DNA of 64,000 nt from Escherichia phage vB_EcoM_011D4, in the sequence record MT478991.1; one strand, written 5' to 3'. Below are positions 498 through 61,053 of the stretch, one piece after another (the first letter of the stretch is position 1; each line of letters starts with the position of its first letter). The translations under genes and the position numbers were made by a program. The notes beneath the pieces are model-generated. The model searched no databases. It was not told the origin of the DNA and worked only from the letters and a program-made list of their open reading frames with translations.

Positions 498-2549
498 TTA
501 CATTTTAAATTTATCTGGCATTGCGTCTACAGATACCAGATCAGCGATAAGCTGACGTAGAGTTGCCTTATCTGCTTTCTTACGTTCGGTTTTAGCTTCG
601 CTAATGAAGCTGGAGAAAGACAGGTCAGAAGCAGGTTTAACAACACCTTCACGGATGAATGCATCACCGTCCGCGATCATCTCGCCAGATTCTTGTAATG
701 CTGCCAGTTCATTTTTGTTCATAATATGTGCCTCAATGTAATAAGTTTCTTGTGAATCCGTCGATGCCGTAGCACGAGTTACCGTATCAAAGGATAACAC
801 AACACCGCGAGGAAGTAAAATCTCGCATTCTTTGTAAGCAAATGCTTTGTTACCTACTGGCAAGACAGGGATGTTTTCCGCGCCAGCAATGGAGAAAGCA
901 ACATTAGCGCCACCTTCACCGCGAGAGCCAGCCATAGAATCAACACCAGCAACGGCACTAGCCACGTTTGCATTCCAGCCGCCAAAAATGTTAGGTGCAA
1001 GGGAAGTGCTCACATAGTTTTTAAAGTAAAACGCTTTTTGCTTACGTGCAGTTTCCCACATTTGCGACCGGAAGTCCATACCACGATACAGAATAGTACC
1101 CGGATCAAGTTTAACTCCATAGTTGGAGAAGGCATTATCCAGTGCATCACACATCTTGACCAATTCTTCTGGATCTGCGATGCCTTCAAACTCTTCCAGC
1201 TTACGGTCGGTTAGGAAGTTGTTCATATTGATGTATGCTGCATCGGCATATTCGCTCAACACAAAACCTTCCGCGCCAGGCAGATCAAGATCAATATCTG
1301 CCATCATTTCACCCATGTTGCTAGCAATTGCTTCAAACATACCGGAAGCAACATTACGTAGGGCATCGGTTTTAATCTGGGTGATATGACTACGCAACAT
1401 TTCAGCTTTTACATCTGCTGGCATAGACTGGTCTACTCGATCCATTGCCAGAGCGGTGATCTTGTTTTCGAATACTTCCTCGCTCATGATTTCTTTTAAG
1501 CGTTTGATTGATGCTGCGATAACTTCCGCAGACAACGGATCATATTGATCCTGAACTTTTACCAGTTCGCTTACTGCGTATTTTGCATCGGCTTCGCTTT
1601 CAAAAATAGTACGCATGAAACCATAGCGAGTGATAATATCACTTGTCCAGTCATTCAGAGAACGGGCGGTTGAACGTTCTAAGGCTTGACGATCAATCAG
1701 AGTATTAAACTGTTTCTTAGGTTCGGCTTCGGTGATATCTTCTTCCGGTTTAAGATTAATTTTTTCTGGATGATTCACATAGTCGCTGTTATAGGTCGCT
1801 TGAGTTTTCAGCATTTCTTCTTTAGTCAAACGAGATTTAGCCGCTACGCGTTGTTCCGCTTCCGCGTTTCGTTCTTCTTCTGACACAAGACTAGCCGCAT
1901 ACGCCTCATCTTTAGTCAGAGATTCACCAGTAGCCTTAGATACCCAGCGATCACCTAAATCACTTTCTACTTTAGTGAACAAGGATTCATCAAGTTTAAT
2001 CCCTTTAATCTTATCAATCGCCATACCGCGACGCTTGACAACAACTAAAGCGATCTTTTTGCTGGTCATTACTTCCTGCTGGAATACTTCAAACTTCGGT
2101 GTACGACGCACCAAACGCTCTATAACGCGCTTAACCAGTTCGGTCTTACCTTTCATGCGGGATACGTTAAAACGGAACATAACAGCGTCTAACTGCGCTT
2201 TACGGGCTGTTTCCATAACCACATCAAAAGCACTTGCCATAACTGCAATCGGGTTATCGCCTAGACCATTTTTAAGCTGTACAATACGACCGCTTTTGTT
2301 CATTTCGCACAGTACAACATGTGCGGTCTTGTCACCCATACGAATGATTTTAGGTGTTTTGTTGGTGAAGTTACAAAGACGGACAATCACATCTTTATCG
2401 CGTGTCTGTACTGCAAAAAGCTGTTTAGGATTCTGCTTAGGCTTTAAGCACTGTACCGGGGCAATACTACCAAAGTTTTCTTCCTCTTCCGTCAACAGCC
2501 ATTTCTCGAAAGATTCAATCATTAGATCGTCGATTTCTAAGTTAAACAT
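498..2549 (-). CDS. alt: ADP-ribosyltransferase Alt (packaged head protein)
   Basis: 683 aa; recalled T4 Alt similarity incl. FYFKNYVSTSLAPNIFG vs T4 FYFRNFVSTSLYPNIFG, LYRG and ExE-type motifs; ATG with GAGGATATAAA RBS. Confidence 0.85.
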   Translation of the reverse strand: MFNLEIDDLMIESFEKWLLTEEEENFGSIAPVQCLKPKQNPKQLFAVQTRDKDVIVRLCNFTNKTPKIIRMGDKTAHVVLCEMNKSGRIVQLKNGLGDNPIAVMASAFDVVMETARKAQLDAVMFRFNVSRMKGKTELVKRVIERLVRRTPKFEVFQQEVMTSKKIALVVVKRRGMAIDKIKGIKLDESLFTKVESDLGDRWVSKATGESLTKDEAYAASLVSEEERNAEAEQRVAAKSRLTKEEMLKTQATYNSDYVNHPEKINLKPEEDITEAEPKKQFNTLIDRQALERSTARSLNDWTSDIITRYGFMRTIFESEADAKYAVSELVKVQDQYDPLSAEVIAASIKRLKEIMSEEVFENKITALAMDRVDQSMPADVKAEMLRSHITQIKTDALRNVASGMFEAIASNMGEMMADIDLDLPGAEGFVLSEYADAAYINMNNFLTDRKLEEFEGIADPEELVKMCDALDNAFSNYGVKLDPGTILYRGMDFRSQMWETARKQKAFYFKNYVSTSLAPNIFGGWNANVASAVAGVDSMAGSRGEGGANVAFSIAGAENIPVLPVGNKAFAYKECEILLPRGVVLSFDTVTRATASTDSQETYYIEAHIMNKNELAALQESGEMIADGDAFIREGVVKPASDLSFSSFISEAKTERKKADKATLRQLIADLVSVDAMPDKFKM

Positions 2550-3148: not shown

Positions 3149-3667
3149 TTAGTTATTTTTTAATTGCTCATCTTGCAATAGGGCAATCACATGCTGGCGA
3201 TGTTCTTCCGATTGAGGCACACCGAAAAAGTTTGTTTTGTAGAAATACTCTAATCGGTCTTCTCGTGTGCTCTCTTCCATCATGATCGCGGGTAGTCCGA
3301 GATTTCGGAAACGTCGCTTTTCTGCTGGCGTAAAATCACTGTAATACAACATAGAATCATCATTACAAGCAATGCTAAACTCATCCTTCATAAAGGAGAA
3401 TATTGCGTTTAAACGCTGTTTACCGTCCACGATTTCGATCTCATAGCGAGAGCCATCATCAATCTTAGCCATTGCGATAGCACCAACCGGAAAATCATTA
3501 ATCAGGTTTTCGATAAACATACGTTTGTTTTCGGTGTCCCATACTAAAGGACGCTGATAATCTGGGTTCATGTTGATATAGCCATCTTCTAACCATGCAT
3601 CATAAACAGAGATGACAAAGTTTTTAGTATTGGTATAGTAACGGCGTTTAGGCGTTAAACGGTTCAT
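3149..3667 (-). CDS. DUF262 / ParB-Srx-like domain protein
   Basis: Motifs NPDYQRPLVW and IVDGKQRL typical of DUF262 (GmrSD N-terminal / ParB-like); start moved to ATG at 3667 with AGGAGA RBS; coupled to upstream gene (TAAcATG). Confidence 0.55.
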   Translation of the reverse strand: MNRLTPKRRYYTNTKNFVISVYDAWLEDGYINMNPDYQRPLVWDTENKRMFIENLINDFPVGAIAMAKIDDGSRYEIEIVDGKQRLNAIFSFMKDEFSIACNDDSMLYYSDFTPAEKRRFRNLGLPAIMMEESTREDRLEYFYKTNFFGVPQSEEHRQHVIALLQDEQLKNN

Positions 3668-3668
3668 G

Positions 3669-3998
3669 TTATAGTCTCCTGAATGGATCATCACGTAAAT
3701 CAATATCTTTTAAGAACTCATCCCATGAATGGCGGATGTTGTTCTTAATTCTCCAGATAAGAGCAGGGATTGAACGCTCTCCCATCTGGAAGTATGGATC
3801 ATATGATCCGTATGCCCAATATGCTACTACAATTCCACAATCAGCGCAATAGTATTCTATTTCACTTGCTGGCGACCAAAGTCCATCAATATGATCGGTG
3901 ATCTTGCTTTCGATGTTATGGCTATGACAATCAGGGCAACGGATGCAATGACCTTGTTTATCGTAATTTGACGTTAGCGAATACTTAAACAATCTCAT
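3669..3998 (-). CDS. Cys-rich zinc-ribbon protein (109 aa)
   Basis: CxxC...CxxC pattern (CIRCPDC ... CADCG); start overlaps stop of upstream gene (TAATG). Confidence 0.55.
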   Translation of the reverse strand: MRLFKYSLTSNYDKQGHCIRCPDCHSHNIESKITDHIDGLWSPASEIEYYCADCGIVVAYWAYGSYDPYFQMGERSIPALIWRIKNNIRHSWDEFLKDIDLRDDPFRRL

Positions 3999-4714
3999 TA
4001 TAGATCCTTATTTGCTTCAAATACTGCCTTTGCGAATCCTCGCGGGGTAAGTGACCTTATAGTCTTTGTTTTCGTTCCTTTCCCGCCTAGCTTAGAATGC
4101 TGTTTACTGTACCCTTTATTAATCTGCAACGGTTTCTTTTCTGGCATTATAAAGCCTTGTCCGGTCCATAAGCAAGTCTTTTTCGGGTACATATCACGGG
4201 CGGCAATATACTCAGGAAACGTAGGATGCTTATCATCTTCCGGCAAATAACCGCCATATTCCCACGGATGGAACATGTAATCAGGCTTACGCCACATGCT
4301 AGAGATAACGCTTACAGGATTCTCTATCATGTAGGGAACTCCGAGCCATTCACCCAAATAAGCGGTTATTTTAGCTGCCCGTACATCATGAACTTGAATC
4401 AATGGTCCTTGTTCTCGTTTCTTTCGTTCAAAGTGCGCAGCGCCACTAACAGCTAAATTGGTGCACGGTGGGAATGCAAAGATAATATCCGGTTTCCCCC
4501 ATTCAAGGTCCATTGCTCTTTCCAGCCAGTTCAAATCAATCCAGGTGTTTACATAGGTAATGTTTGGATGTTCAAATCTGGTATTATACTTTTTGTATGT
4601 ACCGTGGTCGGCGTCATCCGCATTAAAGCAGACTACCTTATGACCTGCTTTAGCCCATTCTAGCCCCATTATCCCCGATCCGTCAAAGTTGCAGAATATT
4701 AATTTTTGTTTCAT
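3998..4714 (-). CDS. C5-cytosine methyltransferase-like protein (short, no obvious TRD)
   Basis: FxGxG-type motif I (FCNFDGSGIMGLEWAKAGHKVV), PC motif IV (FAFPPCTNLAVSG), ENV-like motif VI (YMIENPVSV); only 238 aa. Confidence 0.5.
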   Translation of the reverse strand: MKQKLIFCNFDGSGIMGLEWAKAGHKVVCFNADDADHGTYKKYNTRFEHPNITYVNTWIDLNWLERAMDLEWGKPDIIFAFPPCTNLAVSGAAHFERKKREQGPLIQVHDVRAAKITAYLGEWLGVPYMIENPVSVISSMWRKPDYMFHPWEYGGYLPEDDKHPTFPEYIAARDMYPKKTCLWTGQGFIMPEKKPLQINKGYSKQHSKLGGKGTKTKTIRSLTPRGFAKAVFEANKDL

Positions 4715-10310: not shown

Positions 10311-10655
10311 TTATTTTTTCATGAGCTTAATTGCTTCTTCCATAGCCAACACATTTCGATAGTTAGGGTATCGTGTTAGATCGTCATACATTCGCTTAAG
10401 GGTGGAAACTTCCTCAAACTCTGGGTTTTCTAGATACAGTTGAACAAATTGTTTCTCTACCATCTCTGCTTTTAGCTTGTCTGCTTGTTCCTGTTCATAT
10501 GATTTAGTTGGACCCAACACCAACAAAATGATAAAGGTGATCAACGGGCTAATGATCAATGATAGGATAACATAACCGATAACGCTACGGTTTAAACGGC
10601 TTGCATACATGCCTACCAGGAAAACAAAAAGGATATAGATAAACAGAAAGAACAT
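10311..10655 (-). CDS. small membrane protein (2 predicted TM helices)
   Basis: Hydrophobic N-terminal 50 aa then charged C-terminus. Confidence 0.5.
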   Translation of the reverse strand: MFFLFIYILFVFLVGMYASRLNRSVIGYVILSLIISPLITFIILLVLGPTKSYEQEQADKLKAEMVEKQFVQLYLENPEFEEVSTLKRMYDDLTRYPNYRNVLAMEEAIKLMKK

Positions 10656-10662
10656 ATAATGG

Positions 10663-11136
10663 CTACTCCTTATTTTCGCGCTCGTACTTTTCGAAATAAA
10701 ATTCTACTGGCTGGTCATGAATTGACAGCAAGCCAAAGCGTTTAGCCGCTCGCAATCCCATATTGCGCTGAATGTACTTCTGGAAGTTCTCGCGTATACA
10801 CTTACGCCAGTATTCTAAGCCCATACAACTTTTATAAAGATTGCATTGCACACACGCCGGATTCATGTTATCAAGTATATCATGTTCCGGTTTATGCATT
10901 CCTACAACCTTATACTTCCACGATCCATCATCATTACGGGCAATTCGTCCATTTTCATCATAGACTACCTTTGAGCGTCGCAATACTGGTTTGATGTGGT
11001 CTGCGTGCCAGCGATCCCCTAGTTCCTCGCCACAATAGGCACAACGTCCACCATATTTCATTTTCAGGATCTGGCGTTGCTCTTTCTTTGACAATTTTTT
11101 AGGTTTAGGGGCTTTCGCCCCTTCATTATCACACAT
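10663..11136 (-). CDS. HNH endonuclease (free-standing, homing-endonuclease-like)
   Basis: CAYCGEELGDRWHADHIKP ... NPACVQCN motif; start overlaps ligase 3 prime end by 8 nt. Confidence 0.7.
   Translation of the reverse strand: MCDNEGAKAPKPKKLSKKEQRQILKMKYGGRCAYCGEELGDRWHADHIKPVLRRSKVVYDENGRIARNDDGSWKYKVVGMHKPEHDILDNMNPACVQCNLYKSCMGLEYWRKCIRENFQKYIQRNMGLRAAKRFGLLSIHDQPVEFYFEKYERENKE
11107..11120 (-). repeat. GGGGCGAAAGCCCC hairpin at ligase / HNH junction
   Basis: Lies in first codons of HNH ORF and last codons of ligase. Confidence 0.45.
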
Positions 11137-12625
11137 CGAATACCTCTTTTACTGTATTTGCAGTGGTCTTGTCGTAGCGAATACGTTTGATGATTGGGAG
11201 AAATAAAGAGAACTCCGGTTCATCTTCTTTACGTGATTTGCTGCGGATATACCCGTTGCATGTCATCTCAATGACTTTTCCAATCAGGTTATGACGGTCA
11301 GCCCATAACATTTCTCGGTCGAGTTCATTTCGACGATCGAACGGAATTACACGTTCAATACCAACATCATCTTTTTCGGTTGTGGTGTCTGTCAATCCCG
11401 ATCCGGTGTTAGTCGTCATTCGTCCGCACGCACTACGGACAGTAAAACCGCCTACCTTATTGGGGTCTTTACTATGCGGATATACATCAACAATTTCCGC
11501 GTCGAAGTCAATCACTTCTTTAAATTTAACCTGATCTTTACTACGGCGATCTTCAAATACACCATGTAAATTTTTAAGGATAATACCTTCTAAGCCCATG
11601 TTTACATAACGATGATATACTTCGCGAGCTTCATCGATATTGTTAACTACAGTGTTTTCGATGATCTGAACACGAGGATCGTTAAGTTCTTCAACAATCT
11701 GTTTTAGTTCTTCGAATCGATCTTTATATTGCTTCGTTGCCTTCTCGTTTCCATAATACACATCACGGTCGATAACATCCCAGACAGTGTAAACAATACA
11801 TTGGGCTTCTTCTTTTGGAATAGTTCCTTTAAGTGATTTGTTGAGGATACCATTTCCGGTCTGACGATCTGCAACAACGGATTGTTTCACTGCTTCCGCT
11901 ACTGGCGTTAATGGCATTTCCTCTTCTTCAAATATCCATGACAGAGTACCATCATAAACGCTTTCAACGAAGTTCTGCGCTGGTGTTTGCGAAAGGGTAG
12001 GCATATATACCAATTCGCCATCTAGAACAATTCCACGGCCTCGTAGACGCTCTAAAACCGCAAACAAATCATCAAGTCCTTGATAGGTATTACCTGAGCG
12101 GGTATAGATTGCTAATGTTTCCCCGTCAATATCAGCCATACCACGAGCGCCATCGCTTTTAAGTTGTGCATACGCCGGATACTTGATATTAGCAATAGTC
12201 TTATCAGAACATGACGATGCAAGGTGGCACGGCTGCTGGGGGATCAGTTTCTTCCATACCTTGTTTGCAGTGGTAGCTGAACAGCCGCATTCCAGATCAC
12301 GATTCAGGACCATCATTGCAACTTTAGCATCATCCTCTGACAAGCAAGTCAGAGTATCGGTAACTAGCTGTATTGCTGCATTACCAGTTACTTGACGCGT
12401 GGCAAGTTTATTTTTAAAGACCTGTAATGCACCGGATAAAGACAATACAGACGAATAGCGAGATGGTTTATCGTATTTCTTTACGCCAAACGTAACCTGT
12501 TTGCAATATGCCAGATAAAAGCATTCTTTCAGCGTTTCATTGCTTGCAGATTCTTTCAGGATCTTTTCTTTCAGCGATGTTTTGTCGGTTGCTGCAAGCT
12601 GATTAATGATATTAAGAATTGACAT
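11129..12625 (-). CDS. 30: ATP-dependent DNA ligase
   Basis: About 498 aa; recalled T4 gp30 similarity (LKADGAR, VLDGELVY, EGIILKN, C-terminal IRLREDKT-like); start moved to ATG at 12625 after GAGGTGAAA. Confidence 0.85.
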   Translation of the reverse strand: MSILNIINQLAATDKTSLKEKILKESASNETLKECFYLAYCKQVTFGVKKYDKPSRYSSVLSLSGALQVFKNKLATRQVTGNAAIQLVTDTLTCLSEDDAKVAMMVLNRDLECGCSATTANKVWKKLIPQQPCHLASSCSDKTIANIKYPAYAQLKSDGARGMADIDGETLAIYTRSGNTYQGLDDLFAVLERLRGRGIVLDGELVYMPTLSQTPAQNFVESVYDGTLSWIFEEEEMPLTPVAEAVKQSVVADRQTGNGILNKSLKGTIPKEEAQCIVYTVWDVIDRDVYYGNEKATKQYKDRFEELKQIVEELNDPRVQIIENTVVNNIDEAREVYHRYVNMGLEGIILKNLHGVFEDRRSKDQVKFKEVIDFDAEIVDVYPHSKDPNKVGGFTVRSACGRMTTNTGSGLTDTTTEKDDVGIERVIPFDRRNELDREMLWADRHNLIGKVIEMTCNGYIRSKSRKEDEPEFSLFLPIIKRIRYDKTTANTVKEVFDV

Positions 12626-13091
12626 TTTCACCTCGTTTTGTTAAACGTTCACGAATATCATTGAGGATACTACAAAATTCCGATTCAGTCAATATAGTCT
12701 TTAACGGATCAGTTCCACCTATACTATGACGTAATTTCTTATTTCCGGTAGAGAGTAATGCTTTACAAAATTCTGGGTTATTCTGTGCCATCGTAACAAA
12801 TGCCAGATGTACCAGTCTGTAATAATGCTCACTCATTCGATGAATCGGGCGACCCTGAAAATATAACATGTGATTCTCAATCTTTTCAGTTCTTCCGGTT
12901 CTTTTTGCTTTGCCGCCGTGCATCAAAAAGATTTCTCTTTGTCTCTGAGGGTTCTTAAATCTTAGCCCCTGTAAAAATCCTTCTGTGCTGTTAATATCGC
13001 AACCAAATAGACGGAATGGTCTTTTATTGAAATTACTCAATTCACCCGATGGATAAGGTCCACCCGCATAGATATCAATTTCAGAAGTCAT
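12612..13091 (-). CDS. NADAR/YbiA-like domain protein (putative ADP-ribose-processing hydrolase)
   Basis: SEHYY and LSNFNKRPF motifs resembling NADAR (DUF1768) signatures; 159 aa. Confidence 0.45.
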   Translation of the reverse strand: MTSEIDIYAGGPYPSGELSNFNKRPFRLFGCDINSTEGFLQGLRFKNPQRQREIFLMHGGKAKRTGRTEKIENHMLYFQGRPIHRMSEHYYRLVHLAFVTMAQNNPEFCKALLSTGNKKLRHSIGGTDPLKTILTESEFCSILNDIRERLTKRGENVNS

Positions 13092-13245
13092 TGAAACTAA
13101 TCTCGCTAATCAGAGAGAACGGATCATAATCGTCATTAGGAATATCGATAGTAATCGAATGAGGATTTACCCATACACCAAACTGGTCTTCTTCGGTGAA
13201 TACTTCGGTATGGATTTCGTGGATGTTTACATTCATAGTTTTCAT
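13081..13245 (-). CDS. hypothetical small protein (54 aa), below ORF-track cutoff
   Basis: Hand translation MKTMNVNIHEIHTEVFTEEDQFGVWVNPHSITIDIPNDDYDPFSLISEISFNDF; stop overlaps start of 12612-13091. Confidence 0.4.
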   Translation of the reverse strand: MKTMNVNIHEIHTEVFTEEDQFGVWVNPHSITIDIPNDDYDPFSLISEISFNDF

Positions 13246-13289
13246 AATAAAATTCCTTAATAATCAATAACTTACAAAATCATATAGCC

Positions 13290-13316
13290 AAAATATAGGC
13301 GGGATTATTTCCCGCC
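13290..13316 (-). terminator. rho-independent terminator downstream of gene 31
   Basis: GGCGGGAAATAATCCCGCC then TATATTTTGG. Confidence 0.5.
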
Positions 13317-13327
13317 GTTTAAAATCA

Positions 13328-13651
13328 TTAACCGTAAACTACCACAATATTCTGTTTGTGCGTTACAGTCCATTTCAGGTCGATCTCTTCTTCCTTCTTA
13401 ACGCCGTTAATAACGTCTGGATGAGGAACTTTATTCATCTTGCCATGTGGCAGTAGAACAGTTTTACCCAGCAATTCTTTATCTACCGTTTCACCAATAT
13501 CAATAATCTTACCTACCAGCGGAATCTCACCCATAGTGCGCTTTTGCTCAATAATGATCCCCATAGAGCTTTTTACTTCGGTCCCTGCGCTTTCTGCTTT
13601 AGCTTCGATAATTACATAATCACCAAGTGCTTTAGGAGTTTTAACGGTCAT
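13328..13651 (-). CDS. 31: co-chaperonin GroES-like gp31
   Basis: 107 aa; position between cd and ligase; resembles T4 gp31 (GEYVIL-like N-terminus, NVPHP loop). Confidence 0.7.
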   Translation of the reverse strand: MTVKTPKALGDYVIIEAKAESAGTEVKSSMGIIIEQKRTMGEIPLVGKIIDIGETVDKELLGKTVLLPHGKMNKVPHPDVINGVKKEEEIDLKWTVTHKQNIVVVYG

Positions 13652-13692
13652 AATTTTATTACCTCTTCAAATCAATACAGTTTAATGATGAA

Positions 13693-14013
13693 TTATTTAT
13701 AAATTTCGACGATCTGCTCTGGAGTCAGCCCGTCTACATTAATCAGACTATCAAGCCCAAAACTACGGAAACCTTCAACTGCAATTTCATATACTGGCAA
13801 AGATGTTTCTGATTCTTTACGCGGTTTTTCAACATTCGGAACTAACCACTTTTCGTATGTTTCAAACGGCATCAGTGCCGGATCTCGCGTGGCGATCATC
13901 TCACGGACAGTACCATCTTTCTTAGTAAACTGCAAAGAGTGAGTACCGACCGAAAACATTTTCTTTAGTGCTTCACGAAGTGCGATATTATCAACTTGTT
14001 CAGTCATTATCAA
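13693..14013 (-). CDS. hypothetical protein (106 aa)
   Basis: ORF coupled to cd (overlap). Confidence 0.5.
   Translation of the reverse strand: MIMTEQVDNIALREALKKMFSVGTHSLQFTKKDGTVREMIATRDPALMPFETYEKWLVPNVEKPRKESETSLPVYEIAVEGFRSFGLDSLINVDGLTPEQIVEIYK
13694..13701 (-). promoter_or_regulatory. candidate late promoter TATAAATA upstream of gene 31
   Basis: Exact TATAAATA on minus strand about 40 nt upstream of gp31 ATG. Confidence 0.4.
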
Positions 14014-14506
14014 TACCCTTCAAATCAGTCAATAATGCTTTTGGAATACGCGTGATCGTAATATCTGCATTATTCAGAATATCAGCCCAATCACGCCCAC
14101 CATTTCGATCATATGTGTCGCAATAGTATAAATGTTTAATTCCACTGTTTGCAATTGCTTTAGCGCAATCTGGACACGGTGAAGCAGTACACCACATACT
14201 AGCGCCTTCAATCGATACACCGCTACGGGCAGCAAACAAAATAGCATTTAATTCAGCATGGATCTCGTTTTTCTGTGACCATGCACTATGCTCTGGTCGT
14301 TTTTCTGGGATCATTTTGCCGTCATCATCCAGCCAACCGTTTTTATGTGCATGACAGCTACAATTTACTTGCCCTGCTGGAGTTCCGTTAAATCCAGTAG
14401 AAATGATTCGCCCGTCTTTTTCGATCAGTGCGCCTACCTTCCACGAAACACATTTAGAGTTCTTTGCGATCAGATAGGCGATCTGCATGTAAGTTTGTGA
14501 CAACAT
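14000..14506 (-). CDS. cd: dCMP deaminase
   Basis: Zinc-binding deaminase motifs HAELNAI and PCPDC; ATG with GAGGATTATATT RBS. Confidence 0.85.
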   Translation of the reverse strand: MLSQTYMQIAYLIAKNSKCVSWKVGALIEKDGRIISTGFNGTPAGQVNCSCHAHKNGWLDDDGKMIPEKRPEHSAWSQKNEIHAELNAILFAARSGVSIEGASMWCTASPCPDCAKAIANSGIKHLYYCDTYDRNGGRDWADILNNADITITRIPKALLTDLKGIDND

Positions 14507-28771: not shown

Positions 28772-28799
28772 ATTATACAGATTTAAATTTACTTGTCAA
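28772..28799 (-). promoter_or_regulatory. sigma70-like promoter for gene 32, inside HNH gene 3 prime end
   Basis: TTGACA-16-TATAAT about 36 nt upstream of gp32 ATG. Confidence 0.5.
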
Positions 28800-29382
28800 A
28801 TACTTTATTAATTATATCTAACAACTTTGGTTTTCTATTTTCAAATTCTAACATTTCTTCGGGAGAAATATCAACTACTTCTGTTTTATGAAAGAAATCA
28901 GGATCTATTGCATCGGCAACAAAATTTCTAGCTAACGCAGCGGCCTTTTCGTAATCATAAAGACCTAGATACAAAAGTTTCCCTCTATCAACCTGAATAC
29001 ATGCTTTATATTTACCATCTCGTTTATAAAAACTTACTCCGATATACTCAGACGTCTTACCTTTTTGCTTTCCAACATTTCTTGAGTTTTGTTGGTCAGT
29101 CGCATCTCTCAAGTTTTCAATCCGATTATCGGTTATAACTCGGTTTACATGGTCAACACATTTTGGCATATATCCATGATGCATGAAGAAAATTATTCTA
29201 TGCTCTTTGTGCAATCGACCATCAAACTTAACTACTCTATATCCAATTCTTGGATTTACATAGCCCGCTCTAGATCCGACTTTATGCTTTCGGTTTGTCG
29301 ATATCTTGCGAATCAGCTTACCGTTATCATATTTAAAGAGTTCATGACAACGAGCATACAATTCAGGATCATATGTTTTCAC
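28789..29382 (-). CDS. HNH homing endonuclease with AP2 DNA-binding domain
   Basis: HNH_3-type motif (HHGYMPKCVDHVNRVITDNRIENL) followed by AP2-like YIGVSFYKRDGKYKA; apparent GTG start overlapping gp59 3 prime end. Confidence 0.7.
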   Translation of the reverse strand: MKTYDPELYARCHELFKYDNGKLIRKISTNRKHKVGSRAGYVNPRIGYRVVKFDGRLHKEHRIIFFMHHGYMPKCVDHVNRVITDNRIENLRDATDQQNSRNVGKQKGKTSEYIGVSFYKRDGKYKACIQVDRGKLLYLGLYDYEKAAALARNFVADAIDPDFFHKTEVVDISPEEMLEFENRKPKLLDIINKVFDK

Positions 29383-30583: not shown

Positions 30584-31180
30584 TTAACCCTCTTTCGTCA
30601 TTAATTGAAAACCACGTTCAGCTTTTGAAATTTCGCTAGGACTTAAATCGTCACCAACATATTCTAGCATCATTTCTCGGATAATGTCAAGTGCTTTTTC
30701 ATCACCTGATTTTAACTCGAACTCAAGTTCATAGTGAGCATCTCCCATTACTTCGCCGACTTTGCAATAATAGAAAGTGTCTTTGCACATTTCCACTATA
30801 GCACCCTCAAGGTCAATTGTCAATGACTTGCGGTATGTCATTACTTGCAATAAAGGAACGATAAGGTCGGAGTTTACGCCTAGACTATCAACATAATGAT
30901 AGAAATCATCCATTGTTGAAAAAGTAATTTCTTCTCGGTTGAAGAGTCCAGATTCACTATCACCTATTTTGACCATGATCAATGATCTATTAACGTCAAG
31001 TCGAGCATAAATTCCTTTTCGACGCAGTGCATGATCTTCGGTATCATAATAAAATTCGTGTTTTAGAGTGTTAGCACGATCTACTAGATTGTACCCGTCA
31101 TACATTGCTACCCACAAATCACAGATTGTTTCGACGCCAATTTGTGAGTGTGCATAGTATTTTAATTCAAGTTCTTTCAT
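30584..31180 (-). CDS. CYTH-domain (triphosphate tunnel metalloenzyme) protein
   Basis: N-terminal ELELKY and C-terminal HYELEFELK acidic beta-strand motifs typical of CYTH/CyaB-like proteins. Confidence 0.45.
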   Translation of the reverse strand: MKELELKYYAHSQIGVETICDLWVAMYDGYNLVDRANTLKHEFYYDTEDHALRRKGIYARLDVNRSLIMVKIGDSESGLFNREEITFSTMDDFYHYVDSLGVNSDLIVPLLQVMTYRKSLTIDLEGAIVEMCKDTFYYCKVGEVMGDAHYELEFELKSGDEKALDIIREMMLEYVGDDLSPSEISKAERGFQLMTKEG

Positions 31181-60549: not shown

Positions 60550-61053
60550 TTAAATTAAAGAAAATTTGTAAATCTCTATCAGATCGCCATTACACGCGTA
60601 AACTTCCTCGATCTCGTCAAGGATCATGGTCGTCCCTGTCTTGTATATGCACTCGCGCTCATCTGCCAACATAGCATACAAAGACAGTCGAGTAGTCGGA
60701 TTGTCATACTCTTTAGACACCACTCGGTCAATAGCATGTTCGTAATAATTCATGCAAGGCTTGGTAGGTTTTATTGCAATAATCTTTCCTGTTGCATAAA
60801 CATCGGTTGCAAAGTCCTCTGCTGTTGATTGCAGTGGCGTAAAGCTCATAGGACGCTCTACAACGAAAGAATCACCCACAATTAAGGTATCCAGCTTACG
60901 GCCTTCTCTTTTGCTCACACCGCGATACAAGGCTTCATGATGCACTAACCGCTCAGTCTTTTCGATCAATCCATTAAGGGTCGACATATCGATATTTTCT
61001 TTGGAGTTCATAACTTCATCAATGATGTTAAGTTCTTCTGGTGTAAATTGCAT
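60550..61053 (-). CDS. possible Mod-like ADP-ribosyltransferase
   Basis: R (ALYRG), S-x-T (PMSFT) and acidic ERE elements in ART-like order; position between dda and 56 as T4 modA/modB. Confidence 0.4.
   Translation of the reverse strand: MQFTPEELNIIDEVMNSKENIDMSTLNGLIEKTERLVHHEALYRGVSKREGRKLDTLIVGDSFVVERPMSFTPLQSTAEDFATDVYATGKIIAIKPTKPCMNYYEHAIDRVVSKEYDNPTTRLSLYAMLADERECIYKTGTTMILDEIEEVYACNGDLIEIYKFSLI

What the first reader, a model, noticed from the sequence alone, without database searches (positions are those of the whole stretch)
12612..13091. NADAR/YbiA-like protein next to DNA ligase, in a genome encoding ADP-ribosyltransferases
Seen in sequence: the 159-aa product has SEHYY and LSNFNKRPF motifs resembling the NADAR (DUF1768) signature. 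Established knowledge: NADAR-family enzymes process ADP-ribose adducts, and members have been reported to reverse ADP-ribosylation of DNA guanine by DarT-type toxins. Inference: a counter-defence or self-protection enzyme against DNA ADP-ribosylation, relevant because the phage itself encodes Alt and a Mod-like transferase.
Basis: partly seen in the sequence, partly recalled or inferred. Interest (0 to 1): 0.55.

Follow-up and report, generated by a model that had tools for sequence, protein, structure and literature searches.

The report
Phage AdfN (gp30.3) anti-DarT1 enzyme

Summary
The 159-aa ORF at 12612..13091 (-) is real. It lies in a Krischvirus (RB49/JSE-like) genome, between gene 31 and the DNA ligase gene 30.

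- **Family:** it matches Pfam PF08010 (Phage_30_3) at 131 bits against a cut-off of 36, and is 38% identical to T4 gp30.3.
- **Known function:** T4 gp30.3 was renamed AdfN in 2024-25. It is a NADAR-fold glycohydrolase that removes ADP-ribose from guanine in DNA. In T4 and T2 it is necessary for resistance to DarTG1, and expressed ectopically it is sufficient to rescue RB69.
- **Active site:** the catalytic Glu (E37), the phage-type His (H122) and the C-terminal helix are present.
LSNF..PF is a genuine family motif. SEHYY is a chance look-alike; the true counterpart of NADAR's SEHYFQ is STEGFLQ (residues 35-41).
- **One real difference:** the phosphate-binding Lys (T4 K43) is Arg (R44) here. 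This rare variant (about 4% of the family) is conserved under purifying selection.

Verdict: ordinary and already known. No link to the phage's own Alt/Mod enzymes is supported.

The parts
12612..13091 (-). Gene 30.3 / adfN ortholog, 159 aa: phage-type NADAR, predicted DNA guanine-ADP-ribose glycohydrolase
13014..13040 (-). Residues 18-26, LSNFNKRPF: genuine N-terminal NADAR motif
   Evidence: L18, S19, N20 and F26 are conserved in 264-269 of 278 family members. They align with YbiA FSNFAAWPI.
12960..12989 (-). Residues 35-44, STEGFLQGLR: the true counterpart of NADAR's S-E-H-x-x-Q-x-x-K motif. It holds the catalytic Glu E37 (codon 12981-12983) and Arg R44 (AGA, 12960-12962) in place of the phosphate-binding Lys
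   Evidence: Aligned to T4 E36 and K43 and to YbiA E48 and K55. E is found in 270 of 278 members; K in 260 and R in 11. E36A and K43A abolish T4 AdfN function.
12819..12833 (-).
   Evidence: It aligns with T4 SPAWK. H89 and Y91 are not conserved in the family. It lies at the start of helix 88-103 of the model, not in the catalytic helix 36-42.
12726..12728 (-). H122 (CAT): the histidine that marks phage NADARs, at the position of the catalytic Glu of YbiA-type and Asp of DarG1-type NADARs
   Evidence: H in 269 of 278 members. It aligns with T4 LKHSI and with the LVEH strand of YbiA. Its role is described in PMC11125620 and PMC11543638.
12636..12686 (-). C-terminal helix, residues 136-152; the corresponding helix is lost in the inactive, frameshifted RB69 allele
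   Evidence: Helix 136-152 in the model. T132, L134, T135 and E138 are nearly invariant. RB69 truncation is reported in PMC11257639.
13081..13245 (-). 54-aa ORF of unknown function whose stop overlaps the 30.3 start by 11 nt (context, same transcription unit)
   Evidence: phrog_15277 E=4e-42. Present at the same position in JSE and in the divergent relative L004. No similarity to T4 30.4.
11129..12631 (-). Gene 30, ATP-dependent DNA ligase; its start overlaps the end of 30.3 (context). JSE annotates the start at the ATG six bases inside the GTG listed here
   Evidence: PF01068 and phrog_114, E=5e-143. JSE annotation. Sequence with GAGG ribosome-binding site inside 30.3.
13298..13316 (-). Terminator-like GC hairpin followed by a T-run, after gene 31 and upstream of the ORF54-30.3-30 block
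   Evidence: This is a consensus match only; the number of such sites in the region is not above the shuffled expectation.

Best explanation
The gene is the Krischvirus ortholog of T4 gene 30.3 (adfN, 'anti-DarT factor NADAR'). It encodes a single-domain NADAR-fold enzyme made early in infection from the gene 31-to-30 block.

Proposed mechanism:
1. On infection, the host DarTG1 system's toxin DarT1 attaches ADP-ribose to the N2 of guanines in phage DNA and blocks replication.
2. The enzyme binds the ADP-ribose. R44, at the position of the family's Lys, coordinates the diphosphate. E37 and H122 sit around the distal ribose.
3. It hydrolyses the N-glycosidic bond, restoring unmodified guanine and letting replication proceed.

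Shown here: orthology, fold, conservation of the active-site positions, synteny and purifying selection. Shown by others, for T4 only: the enzymatic activity and the anti-DarTG1 phenotype. Inferred: that this allele, with Arg in place of Lys, does the same job.
For: - **Family and orthology.** PF08010 scores 131 bits against a cut-off of 36. The protein is 38% identical to T4 gp30.3 over 151 aa, E=9e-30.
- **Synteny.** It sits between gene 31 and ligase in JSE, T4, Acinetobacter phage MD-2021a and the divergent relative L004.
- **Active site.** E37 and H122 are present and nearly invariant in the family. The C-terminal helix is intact.
- **Selection.** dN/dS is about 0.14 against a 67%-identical relative that also keeps R44.
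- **Arg at the Lys position.** It recurs in several lineages that keep E37 and H122.
- **Literature.** T4 AdfN removes ADPr from DarT1-modified DNA. E36A and K43A are dead. Deletion of adfN makes T4 and T2 sensitive to DarTG1 (PMC11257639 and PMC11825919). In vitro activity of T4 gp30.3 is reported in PMC11125620. In E. coli C7 NADAR, K95R keeps hydrolysis in vitro (PMC11543638).
- **Distribution.** 1509 phage records carry a homolog.
Against: - No experiment exists for any Krischvirus allele.
- The residue matching T4 K43 is Arg. The one tested Lys-to-Arg NADAR mutant (E. coli C7 K95R) kept in vitro activity but no longer rescued DarT1 toxicity in cells, so in vivo potency is uncertain.
- T4 AdfN works fully only during T-even infection and is thought to need an unidentified phage factor. 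Whether Krischvirus supplies that factor is unknown.
- The canonical NADAR profile PF08719 is below threshold.
Confidence: 0.78

Rival explanations
1. Same fold and ancestry, but the Lys-to-Arg change at the phosphate-binding position has weakened or retuned the enzyme. The Krischvirus protein would then be a poor or inactive anti-DarT1 factor, or prefer another guanine-ADPr source such as other DarT1 variants, ScARP/pierisin-like toxins or RNA G-ADPr.
For: R44 replaces the Lys found in 260 of 278 members. T4 K43A is dead. E. coli C7 NADAR K95R hydrolyses in vitro but fails to protect cells. NADARs remove G-ADPr from RNA as well as from DNA.
Against: Arg is retained across a deep clade (Krischvirus, the 67%-identical L004 relative, and an Acinetobacter phage at 50% identity) under purifying selection, dN/dS about 0.14. 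Arg arose independently in other lineages that keep E37 and H122. All 59 Krischvirus records keep a protein at least 95% identical to this one.
Confidence: 0.12
2. It acts on soluble ADP-ribose derivatives (immune signals or by-products of RNA repair) rather than on DNA adducts. This was proposed for phage NADARs on contextual grounds before the biochemistry was done.
For: Iyer et al. [quoted passage not shown] The gene lies in a block that also holds the RNA-repair genes pseT and rnlA.
Against: The T4 ortholog acts directly on ADP-ribosylated DNA, and this explains the phage phenotype. The active-site residues are shared.
Confidence: 0.05
3. It is self-protection or regulation: it reverses ADP-ribosylation made by the phage's own Alt and Mod-like transferases.
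For: Alt (498..2549) and a Mod-like ORF (60550..61053) are encoded in the same window. Phage NADARs in T4-like phages are reported to be expressed early along with the ARTs.
Against: From established knowledge, not tested here, Alt and Mod modify arginine in proteins. T4 AdfN is specific for guanine-ADPr and does not remove thymidine-ADPr or cytidine-ADPr. The T4 deletion phenotype is DarTG1-specific. The genes are 10 kb and 47 kb away, not adjacent.
Confidence: 0.03
4. It is a YbiA-like metabolic N-glycosidase acting on riboflavin-pathway intermediates.
For: It shares the fold and the Glu/basic-residue motif with E. coli YbiA.
Against: The Glu in the last strand that defines the YbiA subfamily is His here. 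No riboflavin genes are nearby. The gene sits in a phage early-gene context.
Confidence: 0.02

Closest known systems
T4 gp30.3 = AdfN (anti-DarT factor NADAR), Pfam PF08010 Phage_30_3
   Same: It is an ortholog: 38% identity over the whole length, the same size, and a single NADAR core domain with no extension. It has the same Glu and the same phage-specific His, an intact C-terminal helix, and the same genomic slot between genes 31 and 30.
   Different: - Arg (R44) replaces T4's essential K43.
- The gene directly abuts ligase; the T4 genes 30.1 and 30.2 are absent.
- It is preceded by an unrelated 54-aa ORF.
- The host phage is a Krischvirus, outside Tevenvirinae. RB49 in that genus has unmodified cytosines.
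- It is untested experimentally.
DarG1, the NADAR antitoxin of DarTG1 (BC4488-type; e.g. Geobacter lovleyi NADAR 8bat, E. coli C7 NADAR)
   Different: It has no N-terminal extension. His replaces the catalytic Asp in the last strand. There is no adjacent darT1 toxin gene, so it is an 'orphan antitoxin' used by the attacker.
E. coli YbiA / canonical NADAR (PF08719)
   Different: Only about 20% identity. The PF08719 score is below the gathering threshold. The YbiA-type Glu is replaced by His. The biological role differs: YbiA is a riboflavin-intermediate N-glycosidase.
AdfN-Bas32 and AdfN-Bas60 (NADARs of T5-like and Vequintavirinae phages)
   Same: They are phage-encoded NADARs that counter DarTG1 by removing guanine-ADPr.
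   Different: They belong to other NADAR branches and were acquired independently. They work without phage infection, whereas the T4-type protein does not.

Membership tests
Phage NADAR / gp30.3 / AdfN (PF08010) | Match to the PF08010 profile above its gathering score | tested here: met
   131.2 bits against a cut-off of 36, E=3e-38, covering profile positions 2-138 of 138. phrog_652 E=5e-45.
Phage NADAR / gp30.3 / AdfN (PF08010) | Full-length homology to the characterised T4 protein | tested here: met
   BLASTP gives 38% identity over 151 aa, E=9e-30.
Phage NADAR / gp30.3 / AdfN (PF08010) | Catalytic Glu (T4 E36) | tested here: met
   E37 aligns with T4 E36 and YbiA E48. E is found in 270 of 278 members.
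Phage NADAR / gp30.3 / AdfN (PF08010) | Phosphate-coordinating Lys (T4 K43; E. coli C7 NADAR K95) | tested here: inconclusive
   The position holds Arg (R44), not Lys. K is found in 260 and R in 11 of 278 members. It remains a basic residue, conserved in the clade. K95R in E. coli C7 NADAR is active in vitro but not protective in vivo. Functional equivalence cannot be decided by sequence.
Phage NADAR / gp30.3 / AdfN (PF08010) | His in the last strand, where YbiA-type NADARs have Glu and DarG1-type have Asp | tested here: met
   H122 is found in 269 of 278 members and aligns with T4 LKHSI. The definition comes from PMC11125620 and PMC11543638.
Phage NADAR / gp30.3 / AdfN (PF08010) | Intact C-terminal helix (lost in the non-functional RB69 allele) | tested here: met
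   Helix 136-152 is predicted, with mean pLDDT 91-96 for the residue blocks spanning 121-150. The TILTE..F motif is conserved.
Phage NADAR / gp30.3 / AdfN (PF08010) | Genomic position in the gene 31-to-30 early block of T4-like phages | tested here: met
   The order is cd, 31.1, 31, ORF54, 30.3, 30. The same slot is used in T4, Acinetobacter phage MD-2021a and L004.
Phage NADAR / gp30.3 / AdfN (PF08010) | Hydrolysis of guanine-ADP-ribose on DNA, and rescue of the phage from DarTG1 | not testable with these tools
   This has been shown only for the T4 protein (PMC11825919, PMC11125620).
   15.8 bits against 35.1, E=0.018. The profile search against the YbiA PDB sequence gives E=0.1.
NADAR superfamily (YbiA fold) | Profile-profile homology to NADAR | tested here: met
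   hhalign of the gp30.3 profile against the YbiA-family profile gives probability 96.7%, E=4.5e-10, over 125 columns.
NADAR superfamily (YbiA fold) | YbiA fold: a helical core with small flanking sheets | tested here: met
YbiA subfamily | Catalytic Glu in the last strand | tested here: not met
   His (H122) occupies that region.
DarG1 (DarT1-associated NADAR antitoxin) | N-terminal extension, Asp in the last strand, and an adjacent darT1 gene | tested here: not met
   The protein starts 17 residues before LSNF and consists of the core only. It has His, not Asp. Its neighbours are ligase, a 54-aa ORF, the gene 31 homolog (phrog_931; weak Cpn10 match) and an HNH endonuclease; none is an ART.

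The most novel reading that the evidence does not exclude
The Krischvirus/Acinetobacter-phage branch of AdfN has stably replaced the 'essential' phosphate-binding Lys with Arg, and it works in phages outside Tevenvirinae.

If this allele proved fully active, or active without the unidentified T-even 'potentiating factor' that T4 AdfN seems to need, two things would follow. It would show that the Lys is not obligatory in NADARs. Comparing the two branches and their tightly coupled neighbours (the 54-aa ORF and ligase) could then help identify that missing factor.
Probability: 0.12. Interest if true: 0.4.

Novelty: already known. Interest (0 to 1): 0.17.

Why it matters
It matters little as a discovery. 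The family, its fold, its chemistry and its role against DarTG1 were published in 2023-2025, and this gene is a syntenic ortholog that JSE already annotates as gp30.3.

- **For annotation:** most RB49-like records call this gene 'hypothetical protein'. It can be named an AdfN/gp30.3-type NADAR. This predicts that Krischvirus phages, which are used in phage-therapy cocktails, resist DarTG1-carrying E. coli.
- **Small open point:** the natural Lys-to-Arg variant at a residue whose mutation inactivates T4 AdfN is a ready-made test of how strict that requirement is. It also tests whether the T4-type enzyme's dependence on T-even infection extends beyond Tevenvirinae.

Tried and rejected
1. **PF08719 and NCBIfam NADAR models.** Only sub-threshold hits were found (15.8 and 16.2 bits). 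They could not settle membership by themselves, so I used profile-profile and fold comparison instead.
2. **Profile search of PDB sequences.** It gave only E=0.1 to YbiA. It was useful for locating the true SEHYFQ-equivalent motif, but not as proof.
3. **hmC-specificity idea.** I first thought the Krischvirus ortholog would test the preprint's proposal that T4 AdfN is adapted to hydroxymethylcytosine DNA, because RB49 has plain cytosine. The published version had already rejected that idea using T4-GT7, so I dropped the angle.
4. **The upstream 54-aa ORF.** It has no similarity to T4 30.4 and no informative family hit. There is no basis for calling it a partner.
5. **Promoter and terminator scan** of 10500-14200. 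Counts were no higher than in shuffled sequence. Only the hairpin after gene 31 is noted.
6. **The 52-aa ORF on the opposite strand** (12800..12958). It lies wholly inside the conserved gene, and I took it to be spurious; it was not tested.
7. **Active-site geometry.** I could not inspect the model's coordinates to check that E37, R44 and H122 cluster in space.

Full report
**What is there**

The window is part of a Krischvirus genome. The 3.1 kb around the finding is 98.5-98.8% identical to MIZ6, JSE, RB49 and 56 other records. The ORF at 12612..13091 on the minus strand is real: ATG start, 159 aa.

It sits in a run of minus-strand early genes with the classic T4 order:
- pseT
- cd.2
- cd (dCMP deaminase)
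- 31.1
- 31 (co-chaperonin)
- a 54-aa ORF
- this gene
- gene 30 (DNA ligase)
- an HNH endonuclease

Its start overlaps the stop of the 54-aa ORF by 11 nt. Its last codons contain the ribosome-binding site and start of the ligase gene. The three genes therefore look like one translationally coupled unit. A GC hairpin with a T-run follows gene 31 upstream, but this is a consensus match only.

**What family it belongs to**

- Pfam places the protein in PF08010 (Phage_30_3) at 131 bits against a cut-off of 36. The canonical NADAR model PF08719 gives only 15.8 bits against 35.1.
- PHROGs gives phrog_652, unknown function. JSE annotates the same gene as 'gp30.3 conserved hypothetical protein'.
- Against T4 gp30.3 the protein is 38% identical over 151 residues, E=9e-30.
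- Homologs occur in 1509 phage records, mostly T4-like phages of Escherichia, Klebsiella, Shigella, Aeromonas, Acinetobacter and Vibrio.
- An exhaustive search of 1.8 billion representative proteins finds 970 relatives.

**What is already known**

T4 gp30.3 has been characterised.
- Schuller et al. 2023 (PMC11543638) showed that NADAR enzymes hydrolyse ADP-ribose from guanine. They noted that phage NADARs carry a His where other NADARs have a catalytic Glu or Asp.
- Cihlova et al. 2024 (PMC11125620) call phage NADARs 'gp30.3 proteins' and report that the phage NADAR they tested retains this activity in vitro. PMC11825919 cites the same study for T4 gp30.3 activity.
- Johannesman, Carlson and LeRoux (preprint PMC11257639; Nat Commun 2025, PMC11825919) renamed the gene adfN and reported the following:
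  - It is necessary in T4 and T2 for resistance to DarTG1. Expressed ectopically, it is sufficient to rescue RB69.
  - The E36A and K43A mutants are dead.
  - The RB69 allele is inactive because a frameshift removes the C-terminal helix.
  - The enzyme removes ADP-ribose from DarT1-modified DNA.
- T4 NADAR removes G-ADPr but not C-ADPr (PMC12945103), and it does not counter the thymidine-modifying DarTG2.

**Independent tests made here**

1. *Fold.* An AlphaFold2 model built on a 25-sequence alignment has mean pLDDT 91.1 and pTM 0.86.
   - Foldseek gives the same two top hits, and everything else is noise.
2. *Profile-profile.* I fetched E. coli YbiA, collected its family and aligned 20 members. 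hhalign of the gp30.3 profile against that profile gives 96.7% probability, E=4.5e-10, over 125 columns. Several YbiA-family proteins in the database also carry precomputed hits to both PF08010 and PF08719.
3. *Active site.*
   - In the T4 and YbiA alignments, E37 matches T4 E36 and YbiA E48.
   - R44 matches T4 K43 and YbiA K55.
   - H122 matches T4's LKHSI histidine, in the strand where YbiA has E125-H126.
   - In 278 aligned domains from 271 sequences, E37 is E in 270 and H122 is H in 269. L18, S19, N20, F26, Q41, Q51, R85, T132, L134, T135 and E138 are also nearly invariant.
4. *C-terminal helix.* The helix missing in RB69 is present at residues 136-152.

LSNFNKRPF (residues 18-26) is a true family motif. 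SEHYY (residues 87-91) is not. NADAR's SEHYFQ aligns with S35-T-E-G-F-L-Q41. T4 has SPAWK where this protein has SEHYY, and H89 and Y91 are variable across the family.

**The one real difference**

The residue equivalent to T4 K43 is Arg (R44, codon AGA at 12960-12962).
- Lys occupies this column in 260 of 278 aligned domains and Arg in 11.
- Arg is shared by the Krischvirus proteins, by a 67%-identical relative on a metagenomic contig with identical synteny, and by Acinetobacter phage MD-2021a at 50% identity.
- Arg also appears in several unrelated lineages that keep E37 and H122.
- T4, LQ5, a KVP40-like Vibrio phage, and Morganella, Aeromonas, Klebsiella, RB16 and Ralstonia RSP15 phages all have Lys.
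- Between the window gene and the 67% relative, dN/dS is about 0.14, with dS near saturation, so the gene is under purifying selection.
- In the literature this Lys coordinates the ADP-ribose phosphates. The K95R mutant of E. coli C7 NADAR still hydrolysed guanine-ADPr in vitro but no longer rescued cells from DarT1.
- My reading is that Arg is a tolerated alternative in this clade. Full in vivo potency is an inference, not a result.

**The Alt/Mod link**

The window does encode Alt (498..2549) and a Mod-like ORF (60550..61053). They lie about 10 kb and 47 kb away. From established knowledge, not tested here, Alt and Mod are arginine-directed protein ADP-ribosyltransferases. The known activity of the T4 enzyme is specific to guanine adducts. 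Iyer et al. 2022 noted only that T4-like NADARs are early genes expressed along with the ARTs, and they favoured soluble ADPr substrates. I find no support for self-protection, though I cannot exclude it.

**An angle that collapsed**

The 2024 preprint proposed that T4 AdfN prefers hydroxymethylcytosine DNA. RB49 has plain cytosine, and Krischvirus genomes lack the hmC pathway, although one member is oddly modified. The ortholog therefore looked like a natural test. The published paper had already shown that T4-GT7, with unmodified DNA, still depends on AdfN. It now proposes an unidentified T-even 'potentiating factor'. The wide spread of gp30.3 in T4-like phages well outside Tevenvirinae fits with DNA modification being irrelevant.

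**Verdict**

The function was already established for the T4 ortholog, and the gene family has long been named. I rate this as already known and of low interest. A minor testable point remains: the conserved Lys-to-Arg substitution, and whether the enzyme's dependence on infection context extends to this genus.

Noticed in passing
P0045, P0048, P0114 and about 100 other proteins returned (not in the window): Most of the best profile hits to gp30.3 are proteins of about 322 aa from gut Bacteroidales (Muribaculaceae and Prevotellaceae MAGs, on contigs up to 596 kb). They fuse a PF06941 NT5C-type 5'(3')-deoxyribonucleotidase domain to a PF08010 gp30.3-type NADAR. The 'phage' NADAR type is therefore common outside T4-like phages and occurs in a fusion I did not see mentioned in the papers I read.
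   Followed up: no
window 3149..3703 (-): A 184-aa ORF matches the N-terminal (DUF262) domain of GmrSD type IV restriction enzymes (PF03235, 72 bits). It lacks the nuclease half, sits near Alt, and is phrog_1583 of unknown function. A Krischvirus was recently reported to be cleaved by the GmrSD-family enzyme BrxU.
   Followed up: no
window 3998..4714 (-): A 238-aa ORF matches phrog_757 'DNA methyltransferase' (E=8e-91) but has no Pfam hit at E<=0.01. It may bear on the unexplained cytosine modification reported for Krischvirus SAP but not for its 99.96%-identical relative TB34.
   Followed up: no
window 13081..13245 (-): A 54-aa acidic ORF is translationally coupled to the start of 30.3. It is conserved in Krischvirus (phrog_15277) and in the divergent relative L004, has no counterpart in T4, and has no known function.
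   Followed up: partly
window 60550..61053 (-): The Mod-like ORF is only 167 aa. It matches the C-terminal part of the Alt/Mod PHROG (phrog_832, E=4e-21) but has no NCBIfam hit at E<=0.1; it was not scanned against Pfam. It lies between srd and a gene 56-like NTP pyrophosphohydrolase. I did not check whether it keeps the R-S-E catalytic triad.
   Followed up: no
window 10663..11136 (-) and 28789..29382 (-): Two HNH-type endonuclease genes are inserted in the early region. One lies directly after ligase (phrog_2118). The other is an HNH_3 + AP2 protein between gp32 and gp59. These are likely homing endonucleases.
   Followed up: no
window 30584..31180 (-): A 198-aa ORF with a CYTH (triphosphate tunnel metalloenzyme) domain (PF01928, 27.7 bits) lies between RNase H and gp59.
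   Followed up: no
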